Sequence record: NC_048203.1
Direction: 5' to 3' (one strand)
DNA length: 64,000 bases
From: Escherichia phage vB_Eco_mar003J3
The notes beneath the pieces are model-generated. The model was not told the origin of the DNA and did no database searches. It worked only from the letters and a program-made list of their open reading frames with translations. The position numbers and the translations under genes were made by a program. Of this stretch, positions 5,459 through 46,425 are shown one piece after another (the first letter of the stretch is position 1; each line of letters begins with the position of its first letter).

Positions 5459-5880
5459 TATTGAGTTACTCCATCGCTGATGTATACTTTACCTTCCATA
5501 ATACGGAAAGAACTGACTTCAGAGCCAATTACATCACGAGTCATTAGGATATCATAATAACCAGCAAAACGTTGTCTTGGGTTATACTTATCACGTTCTT
5601 TAGATGCTTTTTCACCAATATTAGTAACGTCTGCAACGGAAAGACTAATTGCAGCAGCACCTTGAGCAGCATCAATAACACGAGTTTTAAAGTTAGCTAG
5701 AACCTCGGCGTTCTCATCTAAACTAGACTTAATAGTTCCTCGGAGTGAATATCCGGTTAAGTTAACAGGAACTTCTGTTGGTGGATATACACTGTCATCA
5801 ACATCCATAAACTGCATGATAAGACCATAAGGTACTTTCTCATCAACAACAATATCAATAACTCGGTTTTCTGTACTCAT
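5458..5880 (-). CDS. tail collar protein (T5 p132-like)
   Basis: 140 aa, same size as T5 p132, located between pb4-like and tail fibre genes. Confidence 0.6.
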
Positions 5881-5885
5881 TATAA

Positions 5886-7943: not shown

Positions 7944-10793
7944 TTAAATAGATGCCCAATCCACAGATTGCTCGCCATTATCACCTTCTGCTCTTATACG
8001 GAAGCGTAACTTCCTATTAATACCTAGAGCATCCTCGTTATGAAGAGCATAGTCTGCCTTATTGTATATCAGTAGATAATCGTAGACATACTGATCTTCA
8101 ATTCGTACACTTCTTAATAAACGATCTAGGTTATCGTAGATTTCGAGAGTGTAGAAGATTCCATCAATGATATCTTCTTCTGGAATTCTATCCCAGGCCA
8201 ACTTAACGTCTGGTCCTACAAACTCCGATACATCTCCTGAAGCTGTATTAGTAACTCTGAAGTTACTAACGACGCTTAAGTTTTTAGCAGAGTTAAGTTC
8301 TACTGATAGTGTTACTGGAGAACTTCGTCTACCATTAATATCTACAGCTCTAATCTCAAATACTGCTAAACCAGCAGGTTCTCCAATAATTTCTTGGATC
8401 ATTCGTAGATTTGGATTAGTTTCTAATTGCTGTACGATATAAGGATCAGCATGTCCAGAGTGAACGATGGAGTAATAAACAACGTTATTAGTTAAGCTAG
8501 GAAGCCAAGATAGCTCACCATTCTTACCAATAGATCCTACTTGTCCACCCGGTGTTGGTGTATACATAAAGTCTCTAGGAGGCAGTACGTTATTACTAAC
8601 ATCAGGGATATCGTTACCACTATTATCAACCTGCTCGGAGTTAATGAATACATCCTCACCGTACTCTTGCAGTGTAATATTAATCTTACCTTCTCTAGAG
8701 TTTTCAACTTCATCAACTAGGAAGTATTTCTTGTCCCAACCATAACGACCGTATGTAAAAGCAATCGGATCGTTAGGCTCAATGCCTATGAAATGATATG
8801 GTAATGAGAATGTGAGAGTTCGTGAGTAACGAGACTTTTTCAGTTCTCTATCTGCAAAGCTACGCGCAGTATAGTAGTTAGTGATGTTTGCAAAAGAAAG
8901 CTGAAGTTTTTTATCTAACCCTTTATCTTGCTCCTTAAATATAGAGTTAAAGAATGTAATGGAGTTAGTTTTCCAGCTTAATGCGGGATCTAGTATAGAG
9001 GCTTGTACTGAGTTGAATTTATTTCTACCAGTAGTATCTGACAATTCCAGATCACCATAGGTATCTAAGAAGTCAATCTCCAGTGGAGTATTCGAGAACT
9101 TCTCAACAGTTATTCTATACTGACCAGATAAGTTGTTGATAGCACCTCCATAAGACTCTATTAATCCCTGCACGTTTTTAAATACTGACTCAGAGGTATC
9201 GAGAATAGTATTCATTTGAACTATTTGTCTATTCTCTCCTACAGCATCAGTCCATCCAACGTATCTCCAGTAGGGTTGCCAAGAAACCTGATAGGATTCA
9301 TCAATGATATCCAGGATAGCTGCTTCTTGAATAAGTTGCTGGAGAGGGAACTGATCAATAGTGATATTAGCACCGTAGCGGTCAGAGGTTAGGTAGTCCA
9401 GAGTTTGCCAGATACCGTTTAAGCTAGTCTTATCAGCAGTTACTCTACCATCTGAATGGTAGATTTTAGTCTTCTTACCTTGAACTTCAGCACTAACTTC
9501 TGGAATTTCTGTTCTGTTTTCGTTAATAGTAAAGCGAACAATAGCATAAGCAGTATCTAACAGTTTATAACGAGAGTCCCAGTATTCCGGTCCATTCTCA
9601 TTCATGTTCTGTAGATAGAAACCTTTCTCTTTTGCAATGTTAACTAGAACATCCGCAGCAGATTGGTCTGCTCTACCATGGTAAGTCCAGATACGGATAT
9701 CACCATTACCATCATTATACCTATATTCCTGTCCATGAACAGAAGGTTCAGAGCTTGATTGACCAGAAGCAATACGTTGCATGGTATCTCCAGCTACTTT
9801 CTTAGTACCAAAGCAAGTACGAGACTTACTATCATTAGGATCAATACAGATCATTGGTACATCACCAAAGTAGAAATCTAGAAATCCATCAATCTCACCC
9901 TCACAGAATGCATACACTATATATACGATATTAGGGTTATGCAGCTCAGTATCTGCGAATACGGGGATTCCAGGAATTTTCTGAGTTCCATACACTACCG
10001 GGAGGAACTTAGCCGCTAAGTTAAAATCGATATCAACTTCCTTAGTCACAGTCTCATAGTATTTCTTCATGCTATAGCTTCTAGAAAGACCAAATAACTT
10101 TTTCTTAGACTGTAACTTGTAGCGTTCTTCCTGAACCTGATACTTAGCTAGAATAGAGATACTCTTATTAGCGTGGAAGAATCCATAGTCCTCTTGATAT
10201 TCAGGTCGCTTAGCGCCGTTAGATGGAACTAATTGGCCAGCAACAATCTCAAGTCCCCTATGGGCAGCATCATCTGTGAAACGTCCGTTTACTCTATCAA
10301 AGTCATAGAATTGATTTGAACAGTTCCATGTGATAGTAGATGTGCTAATTCCAGAAGTACCAATGTTATCCTTAATACCTCCACCAGTAATTTTACCACG
10401 AAAGTAAAGTAAAGGACCATTAGTGTCTGAATCTACAGGAAGAATATTGCCTTCTTCATCAATAACCGCTTGATGGATTGAGATAGACCTATCTAGGAAG
10501 GATACACCATTTTGGACTAGTTTTAATACTTCATCCTCAGCAGTACCTGTGATAGTAAAAGAAAGACTACCAATGGAAAGATCTCTATTTTGTTTATGTG
10601 TTGTTATAGACTTAACCTTACCGGATGTATAAAGAATACCATTATATCTTACATCTCTAAAATAATCTGTAAGATATATGTACGCAGAACTTGATCCGGT
10701 AGAGCTTGGCAATTCAAGAGTAATAAGGCATGCAGTTTTTATTTTATTATTGGTTCTTAGATACTCTCTTGCACTGTCAAGAATTTTCTTCAT
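7944..10793 (-). CDS. baseplate hub protein (T5 pb3-like)
   Basis: 949 aa, same length as T5 pb3; follows Dit gene with 4-nt overlap. Confidence 0.7.
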   Translation of the reverse strand: MKKILDSAREYLRTNNKIKTACLITLELPSSTGSSSAYIYLTDYFRDVRYNGILYTSGKVKSITTHKQNRDLSIGSLSFTITGTAEDEVLKLVQNGVSFLDRSISIHQAVIDEEGNILPVDSDTNGPLLYFRGKITGGGIKDNIGTSGISTSTITWNCSNQFYDFDRVNGRFTDDAAHRGLEIVAGQLVPSNGAKRPEYQEDYGFFHANKSISILAKYQVQEERYKLQSKKKLFGLSRSYSMKKYYETVTKEVDIDFNLAAKFLPVVYGTQKIPGIPVFADTELHNPNIVYIVYAFCEGEIDGFLDFYFGDVPMICIDPNDSKSRTCFGTKKVAGDTMQRIASGQSSSEPSVHGQEYRYNDGNGDIRIWTYHGRADQSAADVLVNIAKEKGFYLQNMNENGPEYWDSRYKLLDTAYAIVRFTINENRTEIPEVSAEVQGKKTKIYHSDGRVTADKTSLNGIWQTLDYLTSDRYGANITIDQFPLQQLIQEAAILDIIDESYQVSWQPYWRYVGWTDAVGENRQIVQMNTILDTSESVFKNVQGLIESYGGAINNLSGQYRITVEKFSNTPLEIDFLDTYGDLELSDTTGRNKFNSVQASILDPALSWKTNSITFFNSIFKEQDKGLDKKLQLSFANITNYYTARSFADRELKKSRYSRTLTFSLPYHFIGIEPNDPIAFTYGRYGWDKKYFLVDEVENSREGKINITLQEYGEDVFINSEQVDNSGNDIPDVSNNVLPPRDFMYTPTPGGQVGSIGKNGELSWLPSLTNNVVYYSIVHSGHADPYIVQQLETNPNLRMIQEIIGEPAGLAVFEIRAVDINGRRSSPVTLSVELNSAKNLSVVSNFRVTNTASGDVSEFVGPDVKLAWDRIPEEDIIDGIFYTLEIYDNLDRLLRSVRIEDQYVYDYLLIYNKADYALHNEDALGINRKLRFRIRAEGDNGEQSVDWASI

Positions 10794-11404
10794 AGACTTT
10801 CCCTCAAGGAAAGTGAAATACCAGTATATGTACCATTACTATTTAACGTAGAGCCAAAACTGTCTCCGTTCATTAATTTAGTTCTAAACAGAATACCATT
10901 AAATACCGGTTTCTCACTACCCGTAGTAGTAATGAATAGATCAGGATAAACACTTATATTCCAAGTATTTCCTGCTGTGTTGATAGAAGTGATTTTGTAC
11001 ACTTTTGGATGGTTGGACAATTTAAATAAATCGCCTGGTTTAGGCAGTCCACGAAGTGTACCTTTAGTGTCCATAATAACTATTGAACCTTTTTGTCCGG
11101 CAGGAATATTTACAGCACTAGTATCACCACGAACTCGGAAAGCTTCATATTGTGGTAATAACACATCAATATAGCTACCTGTTCTTTTATAATCTAGAAT
11201 GAATGAGTCTAATTTAGCAAATTCATCTGGGAATAATTCTGGATAAGAGATATTAATACCCCAATATTGAGCAGACACCTTAACCTCCCTAACTTTACCA
11301 TTAGGTAATTCATCACGAATCATAGGGTCATTGTCTACTAAGTTAACGCTTTCAAAACCTAACCCTGATAGCTCTGGGTTCGTGTATGGGTCTGGTAGTC
11401 TCAT
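10790..11404 (-). CDS. distal tail protein Dit (T5 pb9-like)
   Basis: 204 aa, immediately downstream of tape measure gene. Confidence 0.65.
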   Translation of the reverse strand: MRLPDPYTNPELSGLGFESVNLVDNDPMIRDELPNGKVREVKVSAQYWGINISYPELFPDEFAKLDSFILDYKRTGSYIDVLLPQYEAFRVRGDTSAVNIPAGQKGSIVIMDTKGTLRGLPKPGDLFKLSNHPKVYKITSINTAGNTWNISVYPDLFITTTGSEKPVFNGILFRTKLMNGDSFGSTLNSNGTYTGISLSLRESL

Positions 11405-29786: not shown

Positions 29787-29959
29787 TAGCGCTAATTTGA
29801 AAATCTTGAAATTTCATAAGATTACACATGCGGATGTGCTCAGTGGGACTGGAGATAGTTAGTAGTCTAATAATCCCCCTGTGTTACTATTACCATGCTA
29901 ACTGTTTCATCCTGTAACCATTTTTTAATTACAGGATGAAACTATTTTATTTTTAATTG

Positions 29960-30694
29960 TTAGGCAACTTTTAATTTATCAATGAATTGTTGCGGAGCGG
30001 TACTATAGTCTCCCCTTTCTTCCTCAGTCATACCCTGCCAGCACATTTCTAAGCGCTGGCAAAGATATTGATAATCATTATCATCATCTAACGATTCATC
30101 AATAAAGGTTTCACCGATCAATGCTACGCCGATTGATAGGATATCGTTAACGGCTTGGGCGTCCAGTGTTTTGAATCCAGCACTTGCCGCCACCGATAAT
30201 ACGCCTTTATGATCATCAATCATCGTAAAATCAGCGTTTGGATATAGCTGTTTAAATAGTTCAAAGTAATAGCTTTTGTATACAGCGTCTTTGCTGTGGT
30301 ATATTTCGCTAACCTTATCCGCTTCAAAGTATTTGTGTAATGTATCGCGGGAGAATACGCGGATATTGCTATTTCCGCGCCCTCGCAAGCCTTGTTTACG
30401 CAAATAAAAGTAATCGCTTTTAGACATAAGGCGCGCGGTACAAATAACATTTAAAGTATTTGCATCATTCATACATTGGCGCATATATTCAACCAACGGC
30501 AATAAAGAATCCTGCATAATTAAATCATGTTTACAGGCTTCGCGGGAATACTTATTTAAATTTAAATTCCCGTTATCATCAAAGCAAGGCGCTACACGAT
30601 GGAAAGAATTAATGATTGTGCCGTCCAGATCCCAAATCATGACGCGGGAAATATGCGGGAAATTATGGGTAATATTCGTTTTAACTTGATTCAT
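29960..30694 (-). CDS. dmp: HAD-family 5'-deoxynucleotidase (T5 Dmp-like)
   Basis: 244 aa; HAD motif I WDLDGT near N-terminus. Confidence 0.55.
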   Translation of the reverse strand: MNQVKTNITHNFPHISRVMIWDLDGTIINSFHRVAPCFDDNGNLNLNKYSREACKHDLIMQDSLLPLVEYMRQCMNDANTLNVICTARLMSKSDYFYLRKQGLRGRGNSNIRVFSRDTLHKYFEADKVSEIYHSKDAVYKSYYFELFKQLYPNADFTMIDDHKGVLSVAASAGFKTLDAQAVNDILSIGVALIGETFIDESLDDDNDYQYLCQRLEMCWQGMTEEERGDYSTAPQQFIDKLKVA

Positions 30695-30774
30695 TTGTTA
30701 CATTCTCCATTTAAGGGATCTAGGTTAATTCAGCATTACCCGCTATTTATAAGCGGGTAATAATAAATTAACTA

Positions 30775-31167
30775 TTAAAGACCATACGCCAACGCATCAG
30801 CGATAAAACTAATATCCTCACCTGATACACTGGAACGAATCCCCGCGCAAGTGTAGACCTTTGCAGACATAAGAGCATTATCAAGGCAAGCGGGGCATGG
30901 CGCGACAACTGCAAACGCTAGACCTGATTTTACAGCGTCAATAATAACAGTTTGCTCTTTTACGGTATCAATATAAACGCCTTTTGCTTTTGTATGGCTT
31001 GACGCTTTACCGGTAATGTATGCAAATGTTGTTACCTGTAGCGCCTCGTTAAAGTCTAGCAGTTCATCAATAATATGACCCGATTCAACGTGATAACGCT
31101 CGCCATTAGAATAAACTAGAACGATGGAAGAAGTAGCGTGATCAAAAGGAATGTTTTGGTTTTTCAT
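30775..31167 (-). CDS. A2: pre-early protein (T5 A2-like)
   Basis: 130 aa, immediately downstream of A1-like gene. Confidence 0.4.
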   Translation of the reverse strand: MKNQNIPFDHATSSIVLVYSNGERYHVESGHIIDELLDFNEALQVTTFAYITGKASSHTKAKGVYIDTVKEQTVIIDAVKSGLAFAVVAPCPACLDNALMSAKVYTCAGIRSSVSGEDISFIADALAYGL

Positions 31168-31242
31168 GTTTAAAACTCCAGATTATTTAATTAACTTTTT
31201 CGGGAATATAAGCGGGGAATATTCCCCGCTGATTAAATTTAA

Positions 31243-32907
31243 TTAGGCAAAGAATTTGCCATTTTTGAAATCAATCAAGGTACGTTGACCGTTTGCATAT
31301 GTAATTAAATGCGTTTGCGTCCAGCTTGACGCGCCAACGTTGTAACCCATATCGAGACTACCAGCAACGCCAGCGGTATAAACGCCGCCGTATATACTAG
31401 CCGTGTGAGTGTGGCCCGTGTTGAGGCGTCCTAACTTTTTAAACTGTTTAGGATTGCCCCGACTGCCGTTAATGCCGTTGTGACCATGTACACCGCATTC
31501 AATTCCTGCAATCTTGAAAGATTGGTCAGTAGTCAGGAAAATAGCGTTAAATTCGCAACCTGCAACGTTTCTAAGCGCATAATCCAATACGTTAAAGGTA
31601 TCATCTTGTTTTGCAATAGCCGCATAAATCGCAGCGTTTAGGCTGTGATACAGTTCGGCGTTTGCGGGGTCGTCTTTAATGTTAGCGTTACGATCATCAA
31701 GCCAACGGGATAACGCCAAATCATGATTGGATTCCACGATGATTGTTTGAGAAAAATCGCGCTCCATTGACTCCAACACGCGACCGGTATCAATGAGATC
31801 GTCAATAACTTTATCACGTCCGGCGGCGTATTGTTTCGCAAGGAATACACCACTTGCGCGGTTGTGATGGTTACGCGATGTAAAATCATGCACATCATGA
31901 ATAAACTGATATTTCGGTTTAAGAATATCAAGCAAGCTATTTTCGCCCACCCATGATGCAACGGCGCATTCATCATCTAATTTTTCGGCGTGAATATCGC
32001 CATATTGCAAGCCTAGAACATGATCGGACGTTTCAAAACATCCGGTAGGCATAGCGCAAATATTCAAATCATAAAACATTCCGCTTTCATCCATTGTTTC
32101 AAGCTGGCGAACAAAAAATTCGCCGTCGTCGTCAAATTCTACCAACAAAGCGCCGTAATTATGCAGCGCCTCAGCTTTTTGACCTGCTTTCTGCTGAATA
32201 TAGTTTTTAAGTGTAGCCGTTCCGGTGGAGTACATACGGCGCACTACTTCACCTTTTAACGCTGGCACACTTTCAGCGGTAATTTTAGCGTGACCAATTG
32301 CCAGACCTTCAATATTTAAAGCCGTGGCGGTTTCTGCGAATCCTGAAAGCGGATAGTCTGCCGTTGGTAACACGTTAATTTCAGCCATGAAAGCAAAACG
32401 GCGATTATTTAAAAATACGTTTTTCTCGCAAATATATTTATTAAATGCGGGATCGTATTTAATGCCTTCGTTACCTTCTCCATTCTGGAAGCCGTTTTTA
32501 TTGTAAATGAATTTACTAACCAGCAATTCACCGCCGATATATTCAGCGAATTGCTCAAGCACTTTCAAAAAGTTTTTATGTGGGAAAGTATTATTTTGAA
32601 TCGACGTTAGAATAAAACGGCGACCGGATTTAACTTCCCACTGTTCCACGGTACTAGAAACAATCCCCGCCGCTTCTGGGCGATCATCATTTTTAATCGC
32701 CTTTTCAGCTTTTGCCGCTTTCGGTTTCGCTGGCTTATTTGCTTCCAGCCAGTCACAAATTGCGGTCGAATGTTTCGGCGTGTCATAAACAGCTTTTGAA
32801 ATATCGTCACAAACTTCCAATTTAGTAGCGCGTAAACGCTTGCCATAGAAATTAAAATCAGCGGCAAGTTTAGTGATCTGGGACTGTTTTTCTGCGGAAA
32901 TATTCAT
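31243..32907 (-). CDS. A1: pre-early metallophosphatase-fold protein (T5 A1-like)
   Basis: 554 aa (T5 A1 about 556 aa); calcineurin-like motifs GDIHAE, GHNG, GHTHTAS. Confidence 0.6.
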   Translation of the reverse strand: MNISAEKQSQITKLAADFNFYGKRLRATKLEVCDDISKAVYDTPKHSTAICDWLEANKPAKPKAAKAEKAIKNDDRPEAAGIVSSTVEQWEVKSGRRFILTSIQNNTFPHKNFLKVLEQFAEYIGGELLVSKFIYNKNGFQNGEGNEGIKYDPAFNKYICEKNVFLNNRRFAFMAEINVLPTADYPLSGFAETATALNIEGLAIGHAKITAESVPALKGEVVRRMYSTGTATLKNYIQQKAGQKAEALHNYGALLVEFDDDGEFFVRQLETMDESGMFYDLNICAMPTGCFETSDHVLGLQYGDIHAEKLDDECAVASWVGENSLLDILKPKYQFIHDVHDFTSRNHHNRASGVFLAKQYAAGRDKVIDDLIDTGRVLESMERDFSQTIIVESNHDLALSRWLDDRNANIKDDPANAELYHSLNAAIYAAIAKQDDTFNVLDYALRNVAGCEFNAIFLTTDQSFKIAGIECGVHGHNGINGSRGNPKQFKKLGRLNTGHTHTASIYGGVYTAGVAGSLDMGYNVGASSWTQTHLITYANGQRTLIDFKNGKFFA

Positions 32908-33005
32908 ATATTAATTAACTCCATTAAAGGGATTTAAAACATTTTAAAGCTGGCAATATTGCCAAATATAACGCCGTTTATTTACAGCGTTATAATTTGC
33001 AACAT

Positions 33006-33221
33006 TTAACTAATCGGCATTAGGCTAGAACTTACACCAAGAGCAACGGCGGCAATAAAACAAATAAGACCTAAACTCTTTGCGAATTTAGATTTATGCT
33101 TAAAATAATATGAATCTAAATCATTTTGAAAATAAGCGAATAATAATGAGGCCGCCATAATAAACAAGCCTAGAATGAGGGATTCACTAGGAAAGAAGAT
33201 CATTTTAATAACTCCGGTCAA
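33006..33221 (-). CDS. small membrane protein (2 TM)
   Basis: 71 aa, two hydrophobic helices. Confidence 0.45.
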   Translation of the reverse strand: MTGVIKMIFFPSESLILGLFIMAASLLFAYFQNDLDSYYFKHKSKFAKSLGLICFIAAVALGVSSSLMPIS

Positions 33222-33260
33222 AGGGAAATTATAGCGGGGAATATTCCCCGCTGATTAAAT

Positions 33261-33695
33261 TTATTCGCCTGCGGCCTGTTTTACTTCATCGACAACGCCT
33301 AACAATTGCGCCATGGCTTCCAGCGTTTCCAGTTTTGCACTTTCCAAACTTGCCAGATCGTCGGCGTCTTTGATAATGCCTGAATCAATGGCGTGTTTAG
33401 CGATAACGCGCACATAGTGAGCTTTACGGATTGAGCTACCGCCGCCAACTTTGCGCGGCTTGTCGCTTTTCTGGTAGGCTTTTGCACTGGTCAATTTAGA
33501 ACGTACAGAGACAGGGGAAGCCGCGCCAACGGCGGCGGCGATTTCTTTTAAGCCGTCACTGTTAGCAAATTCAACGCCATTTTTTTCGATCATTTCAGAA
33601 TACAAAGAGACAGCTTTCTGCGTGTTTTCTTCATTCCAAGAGAATTTTGCGGCTTTTTCGGTTTTAACGTTAGACATAGTAAATACTCCGTTCAA
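33261..33695 (-). CDS. pre-early hypothetical protein
   Basis: 144 aa ORF in A1 operon direction. Confidence 0.5.
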   Translation of the reverse strand: MNGVFTMSNVKTEKAAKFSWNEENTQKAVSLYSEMIEKNGVEFANSDGLKEIAAAVGAASPVSVRSKLTSAKAYQKSDKPRKVGGGSSIRKAHYVRVIAKHAIDSGIIKDADDLASLESAKLETLEAMAQLLGVVDEVKQAAGE

Positions 33696-33776
33696 TTATT
33701 AATTAAGGGATTATGATTAACTAATGTTAATCGTTATATTGCCCATATTTCAGGGCAATATAAAAGTAACACTAAT

Positions 33777-34028
33777 TTATGCTATGGCTTGCCATTTATC
33801 ATCTTTCTGAATGACCTTTACAACGTCGCCAGATTTAACACGGACGGTATAAATCGGCTTGCCGTGGTTACTGCGTTCCGTTTCCGCGTAGACCGCTTCA
33901 ATCTTATCAAAGGGATCAAGCGCCGCACCTTTAATACGTTCGGCTTTTCCGGTTAATTCATCCGTTTTAGTTACAAAAGGAATGAATACAGATTGACCTA
34001 CTTTCGGCGCGGTAATAACGTTTTGCAT
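33777..34028 (-). CDS. pre-early hypothetical protein
   Basis: 83 aa ORF. Confidence 0.45.
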   Translation of the reverse strand: MQNVITAPKVGQSVFIPFVTKTDELTGKAERIKGAALDPFDKIEAVYAETERSNHGKPIYTVRVKSGDVVKVIQKDDKWQAIA

Positions 34029-34192
34029 TTTTAATACTCCGGTTTATTGGGGATTATTCCACAATAGCGCCTCGATACTTTGAAACGCTATTAGATTATA
34101 ATCCGCTAGGAGTTAGCCTAAACATTACCGTTATCCAAATTGTTAAAGAGCAGTTACTACGGGGAACATCTTAAAACCTATCGGCTAGCGTG

Positions 34193-34402
34193 TCAAGCGT
34201 TTTTTAAACTTTTTTCGATTTGATGGGAGTTATATAAATCAATCATTATATTACGCCACACCATTTCCAGCCCTTGTTGCTTGCCTTTCTTGTATTGCTT
34301 GAATCTGTATTTTACAGATCGTTGCGCTACTGTCAACAAATTTTTTGTTCTGCTATCAAGCGACTTGATAGGCTTGCCAGTGATCAAAAGCGTTTGTTTC
34401 AT
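34193..34402 (-). CDS. pre-early small basic protein
   Basis: 69 aa, Lys/Arg-rich; first gene after the 1.1-kb regulatory region. Confidence 0.45.
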   Translation of the reverse strand: MKQTLLITGKPIKSLDSRTKNLLTVAQRSVKYRFKQYKKGKQQGLEMVWRNIMIDLYNSHQIEKSLKNA

Positions 34403-34808
34403 ATCGTCGATTCCTTATAATATCTAAGTTTACCGCCGATAGGCTTTAAGATGTTCCCTAATTTTTAAAGAGCATGGCAGGGTTTTGAAAGGTCAAACAG
34501 ACTGTCAATCGCTGTTATCCCCGCCGTGTAGTTCGTCATTGCCGCCCTACGTGATAAATAATAGGAGAATACCGAGAAGGGCGCAAGCGTATTTTTGTAA
34601 AGAAACGTAAAGAAAACCACTACTCGCAAACGTCCAGCGGCGCATTAAATTTAATGAAACGGGCGCGCGAATAACACCAAAACAACCATTTTAGCAAGTA
34701 ATTTTTTCATTTATATCTGCTCTAGGGTACTTGACAAAATCTAAAATCCTCGTGGTGAGGTTTTCTCGGTGTACCCCTTATGATTGCCTATCTTTTCCTT
34801 TGAGGCGC

Positions 34809-34835
34809 TTAGAATGCGTTACAGAGCGTTTTAGA
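34809..34835. repeat. 27-bp element TTAGAATGCGTTACAGAGCGTTTTAGA, copy 1
   Basis: identical to 38232..38258. Confidence 0.9.
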
Positions 34836-35165
34836 CCCTGTTAATAACTTATACAAAAAGCAAAAATGAAATTTAATGAGTTATCCACTTGATTTTTCAA
34901 AAAAGTATTTTCTGCTGTTATTTTTCATTGACAAATAAGTCTGGACGTGTATCAGATCGTTAGCAGACTAATAATCGCTAGGATGATAATCACGCTGGTG
35001 GATTGTAACGGCTGAAATCATTAGCAGACTATTAATCAAGGAAAATCCTATTAGCCAACTAACTATTTCATAATATATAATATACATATAAATTAATGAG
35101 AAATAATAAATATGAGAAACTATCGGGCTAAGTGAGAACCACTATCATTTAACTTATACCCAAAG

Positions 35166-35174
35166 TTATCCACA
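35166..35174 (+). promoter_or_regulatory. DnaA box TTATCCACA
   Basis: perfect 9-mer consensus. Confidence 0.6.
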
Positions 35175-35214
35175 GCACAAAATAACTTGACGCAATAGGC
35201 GACGTTTTGGCGAC

Positions 35215-35223
35215 TTATCCACA
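35215..35223 (+). promoter_or_regulatory. DnaA box TTATCCACA
   Basis: perfect 9-mer consensus, 49 bp from first box. Confidence 0.6.
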
Positions 35224-35243
35224 GACTTATATACAGGTTATCC

Positions 35244-35263
35244 TACTGTATAAATATACAGGG
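35244..35263. promoter_or_regulatory. LexA (SOS) box-like palindrome followed by TAGAAT -10-like hexamer
   Basis: TACTGTATAAATATACAGGG: CTGT-N8-ACAG core, 18/20 to TACTGTATATATATACAGTA. Confidence 0.5.
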
Positions 35264-35510
35264 TAGAATGGTAGCAGTAACAACCGCAATCAAATTTAAG
35301 CGGCCTAGAACGCGCTACACGGCGTTTTCTCACTGCTGCCCTTATTATAATAAAGCCTTGTGTACACTTACAGAGTGCTAGAAATAGAAAACGCGCGGAT
35401 ATCATAAAAACAGGCAGTAAGCAAGGAATAAAAAACCTTTTCTTTTTCCTTGCCCCTAGCGAACAAATATCTATATCATTCACTCACCGATTAACGAGGG
35501 AGACAAAGAA

Positions 35511-36536
35511 ATGTCTACTGTAAGAATTGCAGTACCAGCAAACGCCACTATTATTAAGGGTAGTTTGCGCAACCTGCTAGACGGATCAAGTCTAGCAAGC
35601 CTACAGCTAGACGGATCAAGTCTAGCAAGCCTACAACATACGGCGGCAATGGTTGAAAAGATTCACGATGAAATTTTAGATAATAATGATACTCATTATT
35701 GTTTAAGTGATTTCACACAATTACTAGACCCTACCCGCGTTCTAGTGCTTTACAACCGTGACTATCACATCATGCGAAATCAGCGGGGAAGAGATATTGA
35801 TTTTATCATTGTAGGTCACGACGAAAAAAGCTATATTGCCCGTGGTTACAATGTACAAGAAAAAGAAATGGTTTTCGCTACTCGCGTAAATGGTATTAAT
35901 TCCAGCGATGTAGAAGATTTACTATCTAGTATTTGTGGCGAATTGACAAGCGCCATTAAACGTGCTGATAGTTACGCAATCGAAACAACTGGCGTATTGT
36001 GTTTTGGACGCGCTAGAGGTAACATGTTGATCCCTAACGATTATTTAGAGTATGGGAATGAATCAAACGTTGCAAACGCTGGATTTACACTTTTACCGCT
36101 TGACAATGTAACAAAACAGGCTGTACAATCTCAAACTTCAAGCGCAAATGCGCAAACTACTGAAAATAAAGGAAATATTATGTCTAAAGTATCTTCTATC
36201 GTTGCTGCTAATAAATCCGCCGTTGTAAACGCTGCTAAACTGGAAGTGGGTAAAATTGCACTGACTCAAGTCACAAAAGTAGCGGCGAAAAAAGCACCGT
36301 TTATGATTAAAGGGTATATTGATACGCCGATTGGTCGTGTAGTGATCGCTAACCTGCTGAGTGTAGCGGTTGACCAGTACGCCCCGACTAATGCGAAAGC
36401 TAAAGCGGTAGCAGGCGCGGCAATGGAAGCGGCAATGTTGGAAATGGTACAAAGTTTCAATATTGCTGAAATGATCGATGAAATGGTAAAAGGTATTGAC
36501 ATTTCAACCTTTACCCAAAATGCTGAAAGCGAGTAA
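35511..36536 (+). CDS. hypothetical protein with internal tandem duplication and Ala/Val-rich C-terminal region
   Basis: 341 aa; RBS GAGGGAG; rho-independent terminator downstream. Confidence 0.6.
   Translation: MSTVRIAVPANATIIKGSLRNLLDGSSLASLQLDGSSLASLQHTAAMVEKIHDEILDNNDTHYCLSDFTQLLDPTRVLVLYNRDYHIMRNQRGRDIDFIIVGHDEKSYIARGYNVQEKEMVFATRVNGINSSDVEDLLSSICGELTSAIKRADSYAIETTGVLCFGRARGNMLIPNDYLEYGNESNVANAGFTLLPLDNVTKQAVQSQTSSANAQTTENKGNIMSKVSSIVAANKSAVVNAAKLEVGKIALTQVTKVAAKKAPFMIKGYIDTPIGRVVIANLLSVAVDQYAPTNAKAKAVAGAAMEAAMLEMVQSFNIAEMIDEMVKGIDISTFTQNAESE
35577..35636 (+). repeat. tandem 30-bp duplication (29/30 identical) inside CDS
   Basis: ctagacggatcaagtctagcaagcctaca[g/a] twice; encodes LDGSSLASLQ x2. 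Confidence 0.9.
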
Positions 36537-36564
36537 TAATTAGTCTAATGTAAAGTTTTGTAAA

Positions 36565-36590
36565 GGTCGCCCTAATCGGCGGCCTTTTTT
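36565..36590 (+). terminator. rho-independent terminator
   Basis: ggtcgcc-ctaatc-ggcggcc followed by TTTTTT. Confidence 0.65.
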
Positions 36591-36654
36591 GTTATAATGC
36601 CTTTACACCGAAACGGTGGATTGAAAATTTTCCCCGATTTCTAGGAGGCGTTAA

Positions 36655-36882
36655 ATGGTACATTCATCATCTTCTGCAATTTTTAATGGTATGGAATGGG
36701 TATCCGTTCCCACTATTGTAAGCGTTATGGTTTCGGAGTTTGGGATTGGTAAAACTTATGTTACCATTCAGGAGCTTTACGACAATGACAAGATTGATCA
36801 GCAAACAGCCGGATTTTTGCTGGATGAATTGAAAGCTAACCACTGCACCAAAAAGCAAGCGGCAAAAATTGTTTTAATGTAA
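36655..36882 (+). CDS. hypothetical small protein
   Basis: 75 aa; strong RBS CTAGGAGG 7 nt upstream. Confidence 0.55.
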   Translation: MVHSSSSAIFNGMEWVSVPTIVSVMVSEFGIGKTYVTIQELYDNDKIDQQTAGFLLDELKANHCTKKQAAKIVLM

Positions 36883-36930
36883 TTAATAACGGGGCGTTAC
36901 TTTCGCCCCTAATTTCTAGGAGCTAATAAA

Positions 36931-37080
36931 ATGGTTATTTTTCGATCAGTTCTAGCAGGTATCTTGGGCGCTATTTTATCGTTGTTTGCAATAGCTTTCG
37001 GTGTTCATGCCGTTATTATCGGCGCGGGTATCGCGGGGTTTTCTTACCTGTTAGGCTGTATGACTGGTAAAGGGGGATAA
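36931..37080 (+). CDS. 49-aa hydrophobic glycine-zipper membrane peptide (not in ORF track)
   Basis: ATG at 36931 preceded by TCTAGGAGC; MVIFRSVLAGILGAILSLFAIAFGVHAVIIGAGIAGFSYLLGCMTGKGG; stop 37078..37080. Confidence 0.5.
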   Translation: MVIFRSVLAGILGAILSLFAIAFGVHAVIIGAGIAGFSYLLGCMTGKGG

Positions 37081-37082
37081 AA

Positions 37083-37295
37083 ATGTTAAAAAATGTAAGC
37101 CTTGCCCGTTCTAAAGGTTTTAAGCTGGTGGATGTTAACACGTTCGAGCGTCCAGATTGTAAAATCGAATATGTAGCACGCAACAAAAACGCGTTTCGTG
37201 TTACAGAAAAGAAATTTGACAAGCGCGGCAATTTGGTAGCCGAAACGGTTAAACACTTTGCCACCTTTTACGCTGCGTTTCGGGGAGTGTTATAA
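37083..37295 (+). CDS. hypothetical small protein
   Basis: 70 aa, starts 2 nt after the membrane peptide stop. Confidence 0.5.
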   Translation: MLKNVSLARSKGFKLVDVNTFERPDCKIEYVARNKNAFRVTEKKFDKRGNLVAETVKHFATFYAAFRGVL

Positions 37296-37296
37296 A

Positions 37297-37641
37297 ATGG
37301 TAATTTACGAGGGCAACCGATTTGTAACTAATTGCCGTCCGGCATTATTAGCAAACTATTTAAATCAGCTTTCACCAGTTTATAAAGGCGTGGTTAATAT
37401 CTATGAGGGCAAAGCACATTATAAAATTTCTGCCGTTGTCGCCCGTGAACTAGCGTTTCAATTTTTAACTTTTGGGTCTTGTGACGTTCAGGTTATGGGG
37501 GAAGCGTTAATAGCGGAAAATGAAAATGAATTTATTGACATTTTCCGCAAAGTATGTACAGAGCGCCTGATTATGAAAGGCGCGTATATTCAATCAACCG
37601 CTGAAAGTATCGAAACAGCGTTTCGAAAGGTGGCGCAATGA
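37297..37641 (+). CDS. hypothetical protein (likely start at internal ATG 37297 rather than 37258)
   Basis: RBS GGGGAG upstream of 37297; stop of upstream gene at 37293..37295. Confidence 0.5.
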   Translation: MVIYEGNRFVTNCRPALLANYLNQLSPVYKGVVNIYEGKAHYKISAVVARELAFQFLTFGSCDVQVMGEALIAENENEFIDIFRKVCTERLIMKGAYIQSTAESIETAFRKVAQ

Positions 37642-37823
37642 CTAGAAATGAAGCTGTTAAAGCTATGTTAGAAGGTAAAAAAGTAACTCATCGTTATTTT
37701 TCCATGCATGAATATTTATTCATGAAATATGAAGTGATCACCACGGAGGATGGTTATAAATTTAATCATGAATTTTATAGCCGTGAAATGTTTAATGATG
37801 GCTGGCAGCTTTATTATGAATAG
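37638..37823 (+). CDS. hypothetical small protein
   Basis: 61 aa; ATGA start/stop overlap with upstream gene. Confidence 0.5.
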   Translation: MTRNEAVKAMLEGKKVTHRYFSMHEYLFMKYEVITTEDGYKFNHEFYSREMFNDGWQLYYE

Positions 37824-37949
37824 CTGGTGGCGAAAAACACAAAGCCATAAATCTAATAATACCGCTGGGAAACATTCCCAGCGTTTACGATTTGGTAATG
37901 GCTTCACAATGATATTGATAATCATTCTCATTCTAGGAGCAATGGCGTT

Positions 37950-38144
37950 ATGAGTGATAAAATTGTTGTAACTAAAACTACTGTTACCGTTGATACTTTC
38001 TTTGTGCCTGATACGCTGGAAAATCGGCAAGCGGTGGAGCGTGGCGATTATGATAAAGTGATTTATGATAACGATGGTTACTATCAACATTTGGTAGACT
38101 CCTACGGCGAAAGCGAAAAGATCACACATCGACTACCAGACTAA
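37950..38144 (+). CDS. hypothetical small protein
   Basis: 64 aa; RBS TAGGAGC upstream; terminator downstream. Confidence 0.5.
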   Translation: MSDKIVVTKTTVTVDTFFVPDTLENRQAVERGDYDKVIYDNDGYYQHLVDSYGESEKITHRLPD

Positions 38145-38150
38145 TAATAA

Positions 38151-38180
38151 CGGGGCGCAACTATCGGCCCCGTCTTTTCT
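38151..38180 (+). terminator. rho-independent terminator ending the plus-strand cassette
   Basis: cggggc-gcaactatcg-gccccg then TCTTTTCT. Confidence 0.65.
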
Positions 38181-38231
38181 GGCCTTCCTCAAATTTCCCC
38201 TTATTAAAATACCTCCGCCAAAAATAAACGC

Positions 38232-38258
38232 GTTAGAATGCGTTACAGAGCGTTTTAG
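38232..38258. repeat. 27-bp element TTAGAATGCGTTACAGAGCGTTTTAGA, copy 2
   Basis: identical to 34809..34835. Confidence 0.9.
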
Positions 38259-38289
38259 AGCTATATTAGAGTTATTCACTACGCAGGAA

Positions 38290-38309
38290 TACTGTATAAA
38301 TATACAGTA
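38290..38309. promoter_or_regulatory. LexA (SOS) box-like palindrome followed by TAGAAT
   Basis: TACTGTATAAATATACAGTA: 19/20 to E. coli LexA consensus. Confidence 0.5.
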
Positions 38310-38390
38310 GAATAACCTGTTGATAAGTCTGTTGATAACGCCCCAAAATCGCTAGGATTTTGTCAAGTCAAATCGTGCTGTTAATAAACC

Positions 38391-38399
38391 TGTGGATAA
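38391..38399 (-). promoter_or_regulatory. DnaA box TTATCCACA (reverse orientation)
   Basis: plus strand tgtggataa. Confidence 0.55.
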
Positions 38400-38430
38400 C
38401 TTAAATAACAGTGTTTCTCACTTCGCTTTG

Positions 38431-38575
38431 TAAATGCGAGTCATTCTCATTATCATTAGCGTTTCCCTTCCTAAATGCAAATCATTCTCATTCGTATTCC
38501 GGTAGTCAAATGATAACTGTTCTCATTCGCATTCAACTTCTCAAATGCGAATCATTCTCATTATCATTCGCATTT
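38431..38575. repeat. three copies of AAATGC(G/A)A(G/A)TCATTCTCATT motif; third copy is a hairpin AAATGCGAAT...ATTCGCATTT
   Basis: copies at 38431..38459, 38471..38498, 38541..38575. Confidence 0.8.
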
Positions 38576-38606
38576 CGGCAGGCAGGGCAATTTGCCCTGC
38601 GCTTTT

Positions 38607-39207
38607 GTGCAAATCCGACATTTGCCCCCACGGATTACGTGCCAGTGTGCATGTGCGAATCCGACAATTTTTGGTAGTGTGCAAATCCGATGGGAAATAT
38701 TTTTTATATGTGCGAATCCGACAATGAATTTTCCTAAAAACTCCAGCAATCCGCAACTGCGATGCAATCCAGCTGGATTTACTAGAATATGTGCAAAACC
38801 GACAAGTGTTAAGGTGTGCGAATCCGACAAGATTTTTGTGACTTCGATTGGAGGGTGTGTGATTGTGTGGGTTTGGGGAGAAGTGCGAATCCGATGAGAT
38901 TTTGGGAGGAACTACGGAAGGAGCAGCGGTGATGGTGCTTTAGCACCGATTTGCTGCATTTTTGGGGATAATGCGGGATGTTTTGGCTAGAATTGAGATT
39001 AGTGGAGATAAAGCGAAATTTTATTAGCAAAATGGGGCAAAATCGCTTGACAAGTGAAAATTCCTGTGGCTCTAAAAACTCAGGCAATCATGGGCCTTCG
39101 GCCCGAAATAATGCTGCTATTTTCAGTGTTCCTAAAAACTTTGGAGACTCCTATCAATGTGCAAATCCGACCATAAATTTCTAGAAACATAATGTGCAAA
39201 TCCGATA
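38607..39207. repeat. array of 9 direct copies of 14-bp motif GTGCRAATCCGAYN with irregular spacing (injection-stop-like region)
   Basis: copies at 38607, 38653, 38679, 38710, 38791 (variant), 38816, 38883, 39159, 39194; no ORF with RBS; also CCTAAAAACT x3 and AACCGCCCT x3 nearby (39071..39300). Confidence 0.8.
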
Positions 39208-39739
39208 GCAATTTCCAGAAATGTGTTTTGGAAAAATGTCTCCTAGAAATAACCGCCCTCCCTATAACCGCCCTGTATAGGAAACCGCCCTAGGATATGT
39301 AACGTTGGAGAGAAACTGCCCTAGAATGCGTGAGAAACAGATTTAAAGTTTAGTGTAAACTCTAGAGTTAATGCTCAACTATTCCTAGAAACTTAGGAGT
39401 CTACTAGAAAGTGTTGTGCCATCCTAGCAGATGAGCGGCAACCGGTGTATCATCTTGAACACAAATATTGCCTTTAAATATTATAAGGTAAATAAAAGTT
39501 AATATACCCCCATTTCATGAGAGTTAGCCCCTCTAGGCGCGTGCGATTTGATACATCCTCCTGAGTCTCGGGGAGGAAGAACAATTGACGAGAACCTGCA
39601 AGCAGAACCGTCATCAAGTATTTTCCTACGAGGAATGATGTAAATCTACGGCCTAGAGGTAAAAACAAGTTGATGTTTTTAATCTATGAGATTATTATAA
39701 CATGCAGCTCAAATAATGTCAAGAAGATTTTGCTAACGT

Positions 39740-45834: not shown

Positions 45835-46425
45835 TCAAACATTGATATCTCCTCTCAATACCGCCGCCACATCTTCATCGATTTGGAGTATTTCACCAGT
45901 AGTGCAGTTAACCACTTTATCATAGCTTGTGAACTTGCCAGACACAATATCCTCTAGAGGAATAGGAGTCTTGCTCATCTCAAAAGAGACGTTGATATAA
46001 CGTGGATCACGCACAGAATTGGTGTGCACATGTCCGTGAATGTTTAGCTTACCACGAAGTTCTGCTTCGTGCAATGGACAGTGTGACAGCCAAAACTTCT
46101 TGCCACCACCTGTTTGCTTACCTAGAGCCTGAATATCATCATAAACGTCTACAAGATCTTTAATACGCAGACCCTGACGTTCAGCATCGTGGTTGCCCAT
46201 GATTAACTGGTTAGGCACATTGTGGATAACCGACTTTAATTTAGCCAACCCTTCACGCCCCACGGCAATATCCCCTAGCAAGACGAGCTTAGTACGCTTG
46301 CCAATGTGCTTGGACAAAGTATCTAGGATATATTCATCATGTTCTTTCATATTCTTAAACCACGGACGGAAGCGAAGAGTTCCAGGGTGGTCTAAGTGCA
46401 AATCCGACCAGAATTTAACTTTCAT
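45835..46425 (-). CDS. calcineurin-like metallophosphoesterase
   Basis: DLHLDHP ... GDIAVG ... GNHD ... HGHVH motifs. Confidence 0.65.
   Translation of the reverse strand: MKVKFWSDLHLDHPGTLRFRPWFKNMKEHDEYILDTLSKHIGKRTKLVLLGDIAVGREGLAKLKSVIHNVPNQLIMGNHDAERQGLRIKDLVDVYDDIQALGKQTGGGKKFWLSHCPLHEAELRGKLNIHGHVHTNSVRDPRYINVSFEMSKTPIPLEDIVSGKFTSYDKVVNCTTGEILQIDEDVAAVLRGDINV

What the first reader, a model, noticed from the sequence alone, without database searches (positions are those of the whole stretch)
35166..38399. Cluster of perfect DnaA boxes in the pre-early regulatory regions
Three exact TTATCCACA 9-mers occur at 35166..35174, 35215..35223 and 38391..38399 (reverse), plus an 8/9 copy at 34881..34889. 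About 0.5 exact copies are expected by chance in 64 kb on both strands. They may titrate host DnaA, mark a phage origin, or take part in the DNA-transfer pause.
Basis: seen in the sequence. Interest (0 to 1): 0.5.

Follow-up and report, generated by a model that had tools for sequence, protein, structure and literature searches.

The report
Known DnaA-box arrays of T5-like phages
The clustered DnaA boxes are real and strongly conserved. They are the host-DnaA binding-site arrays already described in the inverted repeats beside the "injection stop" region of T5-like phages, so this is a known feature whose function is still untested.

Summary
A fourth exact copy at 46221 (-) was missed; it lies inside a phosphatase gene. 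Four exact copies against 0.7 expected (0 of 100 shuffles) is a real enrichment, and it is local. In the complete genome of the closest relative (vB_EcoS_Ace, 112.8 kb), the only exact copies are the same three plus the phosphatase one.

The window is an Epseptimavirus (T5-like) phage. The boxes lie in the two arms of a 135-bp inverted repeat (35127-35263 and 38290-38426). The repeat flanks the rightward pre-early operon inside the terminal repeat (about 29,835-39,072). Each arm has four head-to-tail boxes in two pairs with 3-bp gaps. This is the eight-box IRC-spacer-IRD / IRD'-spacer-IRC' architecture that Davison (2020) described for 25 T5-like phages including EPS7, first noted in T5 in 1987.

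Across 55 distinct arms the core has no indels, and box variation follows TTWTNCACA except at position 6. Exact boxes recur at the same place in Vibrio phages. Membrane-bound DnaA halting first-step transfer is the published hypothesis and remains untested. The origin and titration readings are poorly supported.

New side observation: a near-consensus LexA box abuts each array and is equally conserved.

The parts
29835..39072 (.). Approximate extent of the single (collapsed) copy of the long terminal repeat, i.e. the first-step-transfer region plus the repeat-rich non-coding tail.
   Evidence: The physical left and right ends of relatives that carry both repeats, including the 121,750-bp T5 contig, map to about 29,835-29,880 and 39,072 of the window. 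dmp, A1 and A2 were identified.
35127..35263 (+). Left arm of the inverted repeat (equivalent to T5 IRC-spacer-IRD, Repeat Region 2). It lies between the leftward (A2-A1-dmp) and rightward pre-early operons.
   Evidence: I1: 135-nt arms, 75% complementary, 3030 nt apart. Alignments.
35154..35162 (+). Degenerate DnaA box TTATACCCA (2 mismatches). It is the outer box of pair 1 and is TTATCCACA in 21 of 27 relatives.
35166..35174 (+). Exact DnaA box TTATCCACA, 3 bp after the previous box.
35215..35223 (+). Exact DnaA box TTATCCACA, first box of pair 2. At this position all 27 relatives fit the strict consensus (TTATCCACA, TTTTACACA or TTTTGCACA).
35227..35235 (+). Degenerate DnaA box TTATATACA (2 mismatches), 3 bp after the previous box. 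It is TTATCCACA in 21 of 27 relatives.
35244..35263 (.). LexA (SOS) box-like palindrome TACTGTATAAATATACAGGG. It lies after a TTATCC half-box that follows box pair 2 by 2 bp.
38290..38426 (-). Right arm of the inverted repeat (equivalent to T5 IRD'-spacer-IRC', Repeat Region 3). It lies just downstream of the rightward pre-early operon and about 650 bp inside the right end of the terminal repeat.
38290..38309 (.). LexA box-like palindrome TACTGTATAAATATACAGTA, matching 19 of 20 positions of the E. coli LexA consensus.
   Evidence: Consensus taken from PMC3009722, Table 4.
38318..38326 (-). Variant DnaA box TTATCAACA (C to A at position 6).
38330..38338 (-). Variant DnaA box TTATCAACA, 3 bp from the previous box.
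38379..38387 (-). Variant DnaA box TTATTAACA.
38391..38399 (-). Exact DnaA box TTATCCACA, the outer box of the right arm. It is exact in 24 of 28 relatives.
34881..34889 (+). 8/9 copy TTATCCACT, outside the inverted repeat. It is kept only in a few relatives (L010, L013, Sugarland).
38606..39211 (+). Nine direct repeats of TGTGC(A/G)AATCCGA (the T5 'DRD' series). They straddle the right end of the terminal repeat and form part of the same non-coding injection-stop region.
   Evidence: families D1 and D5.
46221..46229 (-). Fourth exact TTATCCACA. It is not part of the element. It encodes V-I-H-N inside a Ser/Thr phosphatase gene outside the terminal repeat.

Best explanation
The boxes are the DnaA-box arrays of the T5-type inverted repeat pair (IRC-spacer-IRD and IRD'-spacer-IRC'). 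This pair brackets the rightward pre-early operon in the terminal repeat of a T5-like (Epseptimavirus) phage. That identification is shown and is near certain.

Each 135-bp arm carries four 9-mers in one orientation, as two pairs with 3-bp gaps and fixed, indel-free spacing. A TTATCC half-box and a LexA-type palindrome follow. The arrays in the two arms point towards each other.

Inferred, about 0.75: the 9-mers are selected binding sites for host DnaA. A strong box probably nucleates cooperative filling of its weaker neighbour, as in the low-affinity arrays of oriC.

Inferred, about 0.35-0.4: the complex on the right arm sits just inside the first-step / second-step boundary and helps hold or stop the incoming DNA there until A1 and A2 allow transfer to resume. 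This is Davison's membrane-DnaA model. The left arm would be an accessory, dispensable copy.
For: Identity:
- The region is 95% identical to vB_EcoS_Ace and 89% to EPS7 positions 4401-10992.
- dmp, A1 and A2 lie immediately to the left.
- The terminal repeat boundaries were mapped.
- The inverted repeat was found independently, and the eight boxes in four 3-bp-spaced pairs. This matches Davison's description.

Selection on the 9-mers (27 left and 28 right distinct arms from 37 IMG/VR loci):
- The 133-column core has no indels.
- Over 220 pooled boxes, positions 1-2 are T in 100%. Position 3 is only A or T. Position 4 is T in 98%. Position 5 takes all four bases. Positions 7-9 are 94-98% conserved.
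- The 3-bp gaps inside pairs are free to vary (entropy up to 1.35 bits).
- This is the TTWTNCACA profile except at position 6.

No concerted evolution:
- Left versus right arm identity is 75% whether the arms come from the same genome or different genomes.
- Right arms are 93% alike and left arms 86% alike across genomes.
- Each arm is therefore maintained on its own.

Deep conservation of host-type motifs:
- Sugarland (A1 73% identical), Vibrio phage Chazly21 (32%) and Vibrio phage D432 (34%) all have clusters of exact TTATCCACA flanking the same small-gene operon next to A2-A1-dmp.
- The rest of the arm is not alignable in these phages.

Local enrichment only.

Position: the right arm ends 646 bp from the repeat end, against 677 bp in T5. 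In T5 the shear point lies about 150 bp to the right of the arm.
Against: - No binding or genetic experiment exists. PMC10644984 (2023) says so explicitly, and PMC13250531 (2026) still calls the mechanism poorly understood.
- 28% of boxes carry A at position 6, outside the strict consensus, so half of the right-arm boxes may be weak sites.
- I mapped the junction primers of the viable T5 hegG-017 deletion mutant (bioRxiv 10.64898/2026.04.02.716235, supplementary Table S1) onto T5. The deletion spans about 5394-9160 and removes the whole left arm, including two exact boxes.
- A protein complex formed on DNA already inside the cell does not obviously stop more DNA from entering (inference).
- The LexA-type palindrome is as conserved as the boxes, and the DnaA-only model does not explain it.
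- A2, a phage DNA-binding protein, is 44% identical between the Escherichia-type and Vibrio-type phages, so a conserved phage-protein site cannot be fully excluded.
Confidence: 0.5

Rival explanations
1. The arms are transcriptional roadblocks or insulators for the pre-early rightward operon. DnaA oligomers, and LexA, bound at both ends of the operon would block RNA polymerase from reading out of it. At the right end this would stop transcription running into DNA still threaded through the entry channel. Alternatively the bound proteins tune pre-early expression.
For: The two arms bracket exactly one operon (35511-38144, + strand). The right arm follows a terminator-like hairpin (38150-38173, read by eye). 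The same bracketing is seen in Sugarland, Chazly21 and D432. The arrays point inward with the LexA-type boxes innermost. DnaA-box complexes are known to block transcription in an orientation-dependent way (own knowledge: work of Schaefer and Messer).
Against: No convincing sigma-70 promoter overlaps either the boxes or the palindrome (and by-eye checks of the -10 and -35 spacings). The operon and the left arm can be deleted together in T5 with only a small-plaque cost. That would make a regulator of that operon unimportant, yet the right arm is the best conserved part (93%).
Confidence: 0.2
2. The 9-mers and the palindrome are sites for a phage protein (for example the DNA-binding protein A2, or A1-A2). 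On this view the resemblance to host DnaA and LexA sites is coincidental or mimicry.
For: A2 is essential for second-step transfer, is predicted to bind DNA, and is fairly well conserved (44% identity between the Escherichia-type and Vibrio-type phages). Position 6 of the boxes varies C/A outside the DnaA consensus. Davison suggested the palindromes could be A1 cleavage sites.
Against: Two independent, exact matches to two different host-factor consensus sequences sit side by side: 9/9 to the R1/R4-type DnaA box and 19/20 to the LexA consensus. They stay exact in phages whose A1 is only 32-34% identical and whose flanking arm sequence has diverged beyond alignment. The tolerated variation at box positions 3 and 5 is what the DnaA consensus allows.
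Confidence: 0.12
3. The left arm and its AT-rich flank, or both arms, form a DnaA-dependent replication origin of the phage.
For: A cluster of phased DnaA boxes lies next to a very AT-rich stretch (35052-35125, read), which superficially resembles an oriC-like layout.
Against: T5 origins were mapped near the genome centre, and replication genes are not expressed until second-step transfer (Davison's argument and citations). The annotated origin-binding protein gene of the closest relative lies at 62.4-65.2 kb. Cumulative GC skew has no turning point at the arms. The left arm is deletable in T5.
Confidence: 0.05
4. The boxes titrate host DnaA to shut off host replication initiation.
For: They are consensus high-affinity DnaA boxes.
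Against: Only three to five strong boxes per repeat are set against the several hundred on the host chromosome (own knowledge). A1 destroys the host chromosome within minutes, which makes titration pointless. The fixed pairing, phasing and position are not needed for a sink.
Confidence: 0.03

Closest known systems
T5 IRC-spacer-IRD / IRD'-spacer-IRC' inverted repeats with eight DnaA / DnaA* boxes (Heusterspreute et al. 1987 as cited in Davison 2020, bioRxiv 10.1101/866236). Described for 25 T5-like phages including EPS7.
   Same: The genomic position, the roughly 131-135-bp inverted repeat, the four pairs of boxes with 3-bp gaps and the same variant boxes (TTATCAACA, TTATTAACA) all match. So do the adjacent DRC/DRE/DRD repeat series and the dmp-A1-A2 neighbours.
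   Different: Only details differ. This phage has two degenerate boxes in the left arm (TTATACCCA, TTATATACA) where most relatives have exact ones. The arms are 3030 bp apart. The LexA-type palindrome at the inner end of each arm appears in that literature only as a palindrome and is not related to LexA.
E. coli oriC DnaA-box arrays (R boxes plus low-affinity I/tau/C sites)
   Same: Both have strong consensus boxes next to weaker ones, head to tail with an 11-12-bp period, in two arrays of opposite orientation. The oriC side of this comparison is own knowledge; the phage side is.
   Different: The two phage arrays are 3 kb apart rather than contiguous. There is no evidence of an unwinding element in use, no replication function, and the gaps are 3 bp rather than 2 bp.
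datA / DARS-type chromosomal DnaA-box clusters (non-origin DnaA-binding loci)
   Same: Both are non-origin clusters of a few consensus boxes whose role depends on the bound DnaA complex rather than on initiation (own knowledge).
   Different: Those loci regulate the nucleotide state of DnaA for the host cell cycle. Nothing suggests that role here, and the IHF dependence of those loci was not tested.
E. coli SOS (LexA) operators, e.g. the sbmC, umuD and istR2/tisB boxes
   Same: The palindrome TACTGTATAAATATACAGTA matches the consensus TACTGTATATATATACAGTA at 19 of 20 positions. It differs by one base from the istR2 box listed in PMC3009722 Table 4.
   Different: It is not placed over a recognisable promoter. 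It sits in a strictly lytic phage and is fused to a DnaA-box array. LexA binding has not been tested.

Membership tests
T5-type injection-stop-associated inverted repeat with DnaA boxes (Davison 2020) | The phage is T5-like, with dmp, A1 and A2 in a long terminal repeat. | tested here: met
   The region is 95% identical to an Epseptimavirus. PHROG hits identify A1 (DNA transfer protein) and A2 (DNA-binding protein), and dmp follows from the Ace annotation. The repeat ends map to about 29,835 and 39,072.
T5-type injection-stop-associated inverted repeat with DnaA boxes (Davison 2020) | A pair of inverted repeats of about 131 bp. One lies between the divergent pre-early operons. The other lies at the left edge of the large non-coding region near the repeat end. 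| tested here: met
   (I1: arms 35127-35261 and 38292-38426). One search places the right arm 646 bp from the repeat end, against 677 bp in T5.
T5-type injection-stop-associated inverted repeat with DnaA boxes (Davison 2020) | Eight DnaA or DnaA* boxes, two pairs per arm, with the boxes of a pair 3 bp apart. | tested here: met
   Left arm: 35154/35166 and 35215/35227. Right arm: 38391/38379 and 38330/38318.
T5-type injection-stop-associated inverted repeat with DnaA boxes (Davison 2020) | Constant spacing between the two halves of each arm in all phages (Davison's 52-bp 'spacer'). | tested here: met
   no indels in the 133-column core of 55 distinct arms. The start-to-start distance from box 2 to box 3 is 49 bp in every arm. 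I did not reproduce Davison's exact way of counting 52 bp.
T5-type injection-stop-associated inverted repeat with DnaA boxes (Davison 2020) | Followed by the DRE/DRC and DRD direct-repeat series. | tested here: met
   families D2 and D3 (38415-38576) and D1 and D5 (nine TGTGC(A/G)AATCCGA copies, 38606-39211).
Functional DnaA-binding site | Sequence fits TTWTNCACA, with conservation that follows that consensus. | tested here: inconclusive
   Three of the eight boxes in the window are exact; the other five deviate at one or two positions. Across relatives, the variation fits the consensus at positions 1-5 and 7-9, but position 6 is A in 28% of boxes.
Functional DnaA-binding site | DnaA binds the site in vitro or in vivo. 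| not testable with these tools
   The literature searched reports no binding data.
Cis-acting injection stop signal (iss) of T5 | DNA transfer stops at or next to the element, and altering it changes the stop. | not testable with these tools
   Only positional evidence is available. The left arm is deletable in T5 by my mapping of the published primers. No right-arm mutant has been reported.
DnaA-dependent replication origin | DnaA-box cluster next to an unwinding element at a mapped initiation site. | tested here: not met
   The box cluster and an AT-rich flank are present. However, origins map to the genome centre (literature cited), there is no skew switch, and the left arm is dispensable.
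LexA (SOS) operator | CTGT-N8-ACAG palindrome close to the 20-bp consensus. | tested here: met
   19/20 at 38290-38309 and 17/20 at 35244-35263. These are the only two CTGT-N8-ACAG sites in the 64-kb window.
LexA (SOS) operator | Overlaps a promoter and confers LexA-dependent repression. | tested here: not met
   No convincing sigma-70 promoter overlaps either palindrome (and by-eye checks). Repression itself was not testable.

The most novel reading that the evidence does not exclude
Each arm is a composite landing pad for two host proteins: a phased four-box DnaA array fused to a consensus LexA operator. This arrangement is conserved from Escherichia to Vibrio T5-like phages. LexA as well as DnaA would bind the first-step DNA at the stop site. 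A1-driven breakdown of the host chromosome would activate RecA and cleave LexA. That cleavage would contribute to the timing of release into second-step transfer, or to the shut-off of pre-early functions. The 60-year-old two-step injection problem would then be linked to the SOS system. I found no mention of a LexA site in T5-like phages in the searchable literature.
Probability: 0.12. Interest if true: 0.7.

Novelty: already known. Interest (0 to 1): 0.25.

Why it matters
How T5 stops DNA entry at 8% of its genome, and then restarts it, has been unexplained since the 1960s. These conserved host-factor sites are the main sequence-level candidates for the cis-acting stop signal.

The present window adds no new kind of element. 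It is one more Epseptimavirus with the published architecture. The analysis does sharpen three points.

- The boxes evolve as DnaA-type 9-mers with strictly fixed phasing.
- The right arm is the constrained one, while the left arm, which holds two of the three flagged boxes, is deletable in T5.
- An equally conserved LexA-type operator sits against each array, and the DnaA-only model does not account for it.

All three points are directly testable with the phage-engineering methods now available for T5.

Tried and rejected
- **One-mismatch and strict-consensus scans**. There is no enrichment at either level in the window or in a whole genome, so a general compositional bias towards DnaA boxes is rejected.
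- **Promoter and terminator scan of 33.8-39.8 kb**, plus by-eye spacing checks. No credible sigma-70 promoter overlaps the boxes, the invariant TTGACA in the arm spacer, or the LexA-type palindrome. I therefore did not adopt an operator-at-a-promoter model.
- **Rhizobium phage RHEph02**. I fetched it to test whether host-factor motifs switch with the host lineage. It is a T7-like phage with A1 embedded among replication genes, so it is not a comparable architecture, and I dropped it.
- **Davison's 2015 review** (doi 10.1080/21597081.2015.1086500, PMC4743489). It is not held, so I could not check whether a LexA site is mentioned there.
- **Nick-site information in the BF23 paper**. Nothing was found, so I make no claim about the 7.9% nick.
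- **The 8/9 copy at 34881.** It is kept in only a few relatives and is not treated as part of the core element.
- **Chance.** Rejected on the basis. There are 153 exact boxes in 628 kb of T5-like pre-early loci, roughly twenty times what the single-genome expectation would give.

Full report
**Observation**

Shuffles expect 0.71 copies, and none of 100 shuffles reached four. The 8/9 copy TTATCCACT at 34881 is present.

One-mismatch copies (20 against 18.6 expected) and strict-consensus TTWTNCACA sites (8 against 7.8) are not enriched. The signal is therefore a local cluster of perfect boxes, not a compositional bias.

The copy at 46221 is the codon run V-I-H-N inside a Ser/Thr phosphatase gene. 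It is probably incidental.

**What the window is**

The region 34000-39500 is 95% identical to Escherichia phage vB_EcoS_Ace and 89% identical to EPS7 positions 4401-10992. More than 500 T5-like records match it.

The genes to the left on the minus strand are dmp, A1 and A2. I mapped the physical genome ends of relatives that carry both terminal repeats, including the 121,750-bp T5 contig. This places the single collapsed copy of the terminal repeat at about 29,835-39,072. The boxes therefore lie in the first-step-transfer (pre-early) DNA.

**Anatomy**

The repeat finder independently reports a 135-nt inverted repeat. Its arms are 35127-35261 and 38292-38426, they are 75% complementary, and they are 3030 nt apart.

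Aligning the arms shows that each carries four 9-mers in one orientation, as two pairs with 3-bp gaps.

| Arm | Strand | Pair | Positions and sequences |
|---|---|---|---|
| Left | + | 1 | 35154 TTATACCCA / 35166 TTATCCACA |
| Left | + | 2 | 35215 TTATCCACA / 35227 TTATATACA |
| Right | - | 1 | 38391 TTATCCACA / 38379 TTATTAACA |
| Right | - | 2 | 38330 TTATCAACA / 38318 TTATCAACA |

After the inner pair come two bases, a TTATCC half-box, and the palindrome TACTGTATAAATATACAG. The arms bracket the rightward pre-early operon (35511-38144).

The right arm is followed by the DRC/DRE-like repeats and by nine TGTGC(A/G)AATCCGA repeats. These run across the end of the terminal repeat.

**Already described**

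Davison's preprint 'Phage T5 two-step injection' (bioRxiv 10.1101/866236) makes the following points:
- The T5 IRD'-spacer-IRC' region was shown in 1987 to contain TTATCCACA plus the variants TTATCAACA and TTATCCCCA.
- 25 T5-like phages, including EPS7, carry eight DnaA or DnaA* boxes in pairs separated by 3 bp, in two 131-bp inverted repeats.
- Membrane-bound DnaA binding to these boxes might stop DNA injection at the injection stop signal.

Later papers repeat the idea. They state that no experimental study of the sites exists (PMC10644984) and that the mechanism is still poorly understood (PMC13250531, 2026). The window reproduces the published architecture feature by feature; the membership table lists each one.

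I assembled the complete 112,791-bp genome of vB_EcoS_Ace. It contains four exact boxes. Three are in the orthologous arms (5832, 9460, 9521). One is in the orthologue of the phosphatase gene (16626). None occur in the remaining roughly 96 kb. Strict-consensus sites number 14 against 13.3 expected. The density in the arms is not matched elsewhere, so the cluster stands.

**Comparative evidence that the 9-mers themselves are under selection**

An A1-based scan of IMG/VR returned 37 loci. All that extend far enough carry both arms. This gave 27 distinct left arms and 28 distinct right arms.
- The 133-column core has no indel in any arm.
- Over 220 pooled boxes, positions 1 and 2 are T in 100%. 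Position 3 is A (90%) or T (10%) only. Position 4 is T in 98%. Position 5 takes all four bases. Positions 7-9 are 94-98% conserved.
- The 3-bp gaps inside the pairs vary freely, with entropy up to 1.35 bits.
- This matches TTWTNCACA except for a C/A polymorphism at position 6 (A in 28%).
- Left and right arms are 75% identical whether taken from the same or from different genomes. Right arms are 93% alike across genomes and left arms 86% alike.
- There is thus no concerted evolution, each arm is maintained independently, and the right arm is the more constrained.

**Distant relatives**

I examined Klebsiella phage Sugarland (A1 73% identical), Vibrio phage Chazly21 (32%) and Vibrio phage D432 (34%). 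All three have clusters of three to five exact TTATCCACA at the two ends of the small-gene operon next to A2-A1-dmp. The rest of the arm is not alignable.

Exact retention of a host-protein consensus across such divergence argues for recognition by the conserved host protein rather than by a co-evolving phage protein. A2 is 44% identical between the Escherichia-type and Vibrio-type phages, so a phage-protein site is not fully excluded.

**An experimental constraint**

A 2026 preprint (bioRxiv 10.64898/2026.04.02.716235) reports a viable, small-plaque T5 mutant with hegG to 017 deleted. I mapped its junction primers from supplementary Table S1 onto the T5 left terminal repeat.

The deletion spans about 5394-9160. 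This removes the entire left arm (6098-6228, including two exact boxes and the palindrome). It retains the right arm (9411-9541).

This agrees with Davison's remark that IRC/IRD are of secondary importance and with the lower conservation of left arms. Models that need both arms are weakened.

**Mechanism**

Shown:
- The element is the known T5-type inverted repeat with DnaA-type boxes.
- It is conserved with fixed phasing.
- The right arm lies just inside the first-step / second-step boundary.

Inferred:
- Host DnaA binds the boxes (about 0.75). Strong boxes probably nucleate weaker neighbours, as in oriC (own knowledge).
- The right-arm complex takes part in holding or stopping the DNA until A1 and A2 act (about 0.35-0.4).

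Rivals:
- Roadblock or insulator for the bracketed operon (0.2).
- Sites for a phage protein such as A2 (0.12).
- Replication origin (0.05). This is contradicted by centrally mapped origins, by the absence of a skew switch, and by the dispensable left arm.
- DnaA titration (0.03).

**Side observation: a LexA-type palindrome**

The palindrome at the inner end of each arm is TACTGTATAAATATACAGTA at 38290-38309. This matches the E. coli LexA consensus TACTGTATATATATACAGTA at 19 of 20 positions (consensus and natural boxes from PMC3009722 Table 4). The copy at 35244-35263 is TACTGTATAAATATACAGGG.
- These are the only two CTGT-N8-ACAG sites in the 64-kb window.
- The palindrome is present in nearly all 55 arms, with variation mostly in the central bases.
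- It recurs next to the DnaA boxes in Sugarland, Chazly21 and D432.
- Davison lists palindromes (among them 'palD') in this repeat region and never mentions LexA.
- Full-text searches for T5 with LexA or SOS box, and for the sequence itself, found nothing.
- No promoter overlaps it, so its role, if any, is unclear.

**Verdict**

The feature is already known, and this window is simply another member. Interest is low for the finding as written. The one modest new lead is the LexA-type site.

Noticed in passing
window 35244-35263 and 38290-38309; also L041 3189 and 7122, L042 384, L043 7164, 10262 and 10939: A near-consensus LexA (SOS) box, TACTGTATAAATATACAG(TA), abuts the inner DnaA-box pair of each arm. 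These are the only two CTGT-N8-ACAG sites in the window. The box is conserved in nearly all 55 distinct arms and in Klebsiella and Vibrio T5-like phages. I found no mention of LexA in the T5 literature I could search.
   Followed up: partly
window 38606-39211: Nine direct repeats of TGTGC(A/G)AATCCGA (T5 'DRD') straddle the right end of the terminal repeat (about 39,072). All are in the same sense as the right-arm DnaA boxes. The reverse complement of the A-variant (ATTTGCACA) is 8/9 to TTWTNCACA. One copy (38790, TTTTGCACA) fits the strict consensus. They could be weak DnaA sites or sites for another protein such as terminase or A2.
   Followed up: no
window 35187-35192 and 38361-38366 (- strand); alignment columns 96-102: An almost invariant TTGACA lies in the 'spacer' between the two box pairs of every arm (entropy 0.05). 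There is no usable -10 hexamer at 16-18 bp, so it does not look like a promoter -35. The conserved block AGTGAGAA-CACT-T-ATTTAAG at the outer end of each arm is also unexplained.
   Followed up: partly
window 34809-34835 and 38233-38259 (weaker copies at 35305 and 39321): A 27-nt direct repeat, TTAGAATGCGTTACAGAGCGTTTTAGA, is 100% identical between its two best copies. One copy sits left of each arm. A similar sequence (TTAGAATCGCTTACAGGGCTTTTCAGG) sits next to a LexA-like box in Vibrio phage D432 (L043, about 10910).
   Followed up: no
window 34162-34185 and 34435-34458: A 24-nt inverted repeat (96% complementary) exactly brackets the 69-aa minus-strand ORF 34193-34402. This probably corresponds to T5's IRA/IRA' around the hdi/009 promoter region.
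   Followed up: no
window 35576-35635: A perfect in-frame 30-bp tandem duplication (GCTAGACGGATCAAGTCTAGCAAGCCTACA, two copies) lies inside the first gene of the rightward pre-early operon (35511-36536, PHROG 4263).
   Followed up: no
window 46221-46229: The fourth exact TTATCCACA lies inside a Ser/Thr phosphatase gene (codons V-I-H-N). It is conserved at the orthologous site in vB_EcoS_Ace (16626). It is probably a coding coincidence, but it is the only exact box outside the arms in a whole genome.
   Followed up: partly
window about 29,835 and 39,072: The window contains the terminal repeat only once. Late-region DNA lies directly to its left and early genes to its right. The source record is therefore a collapsed or circularly permuted assembly of a genome that in the virion has two repeat copies.
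   Followed up: partly
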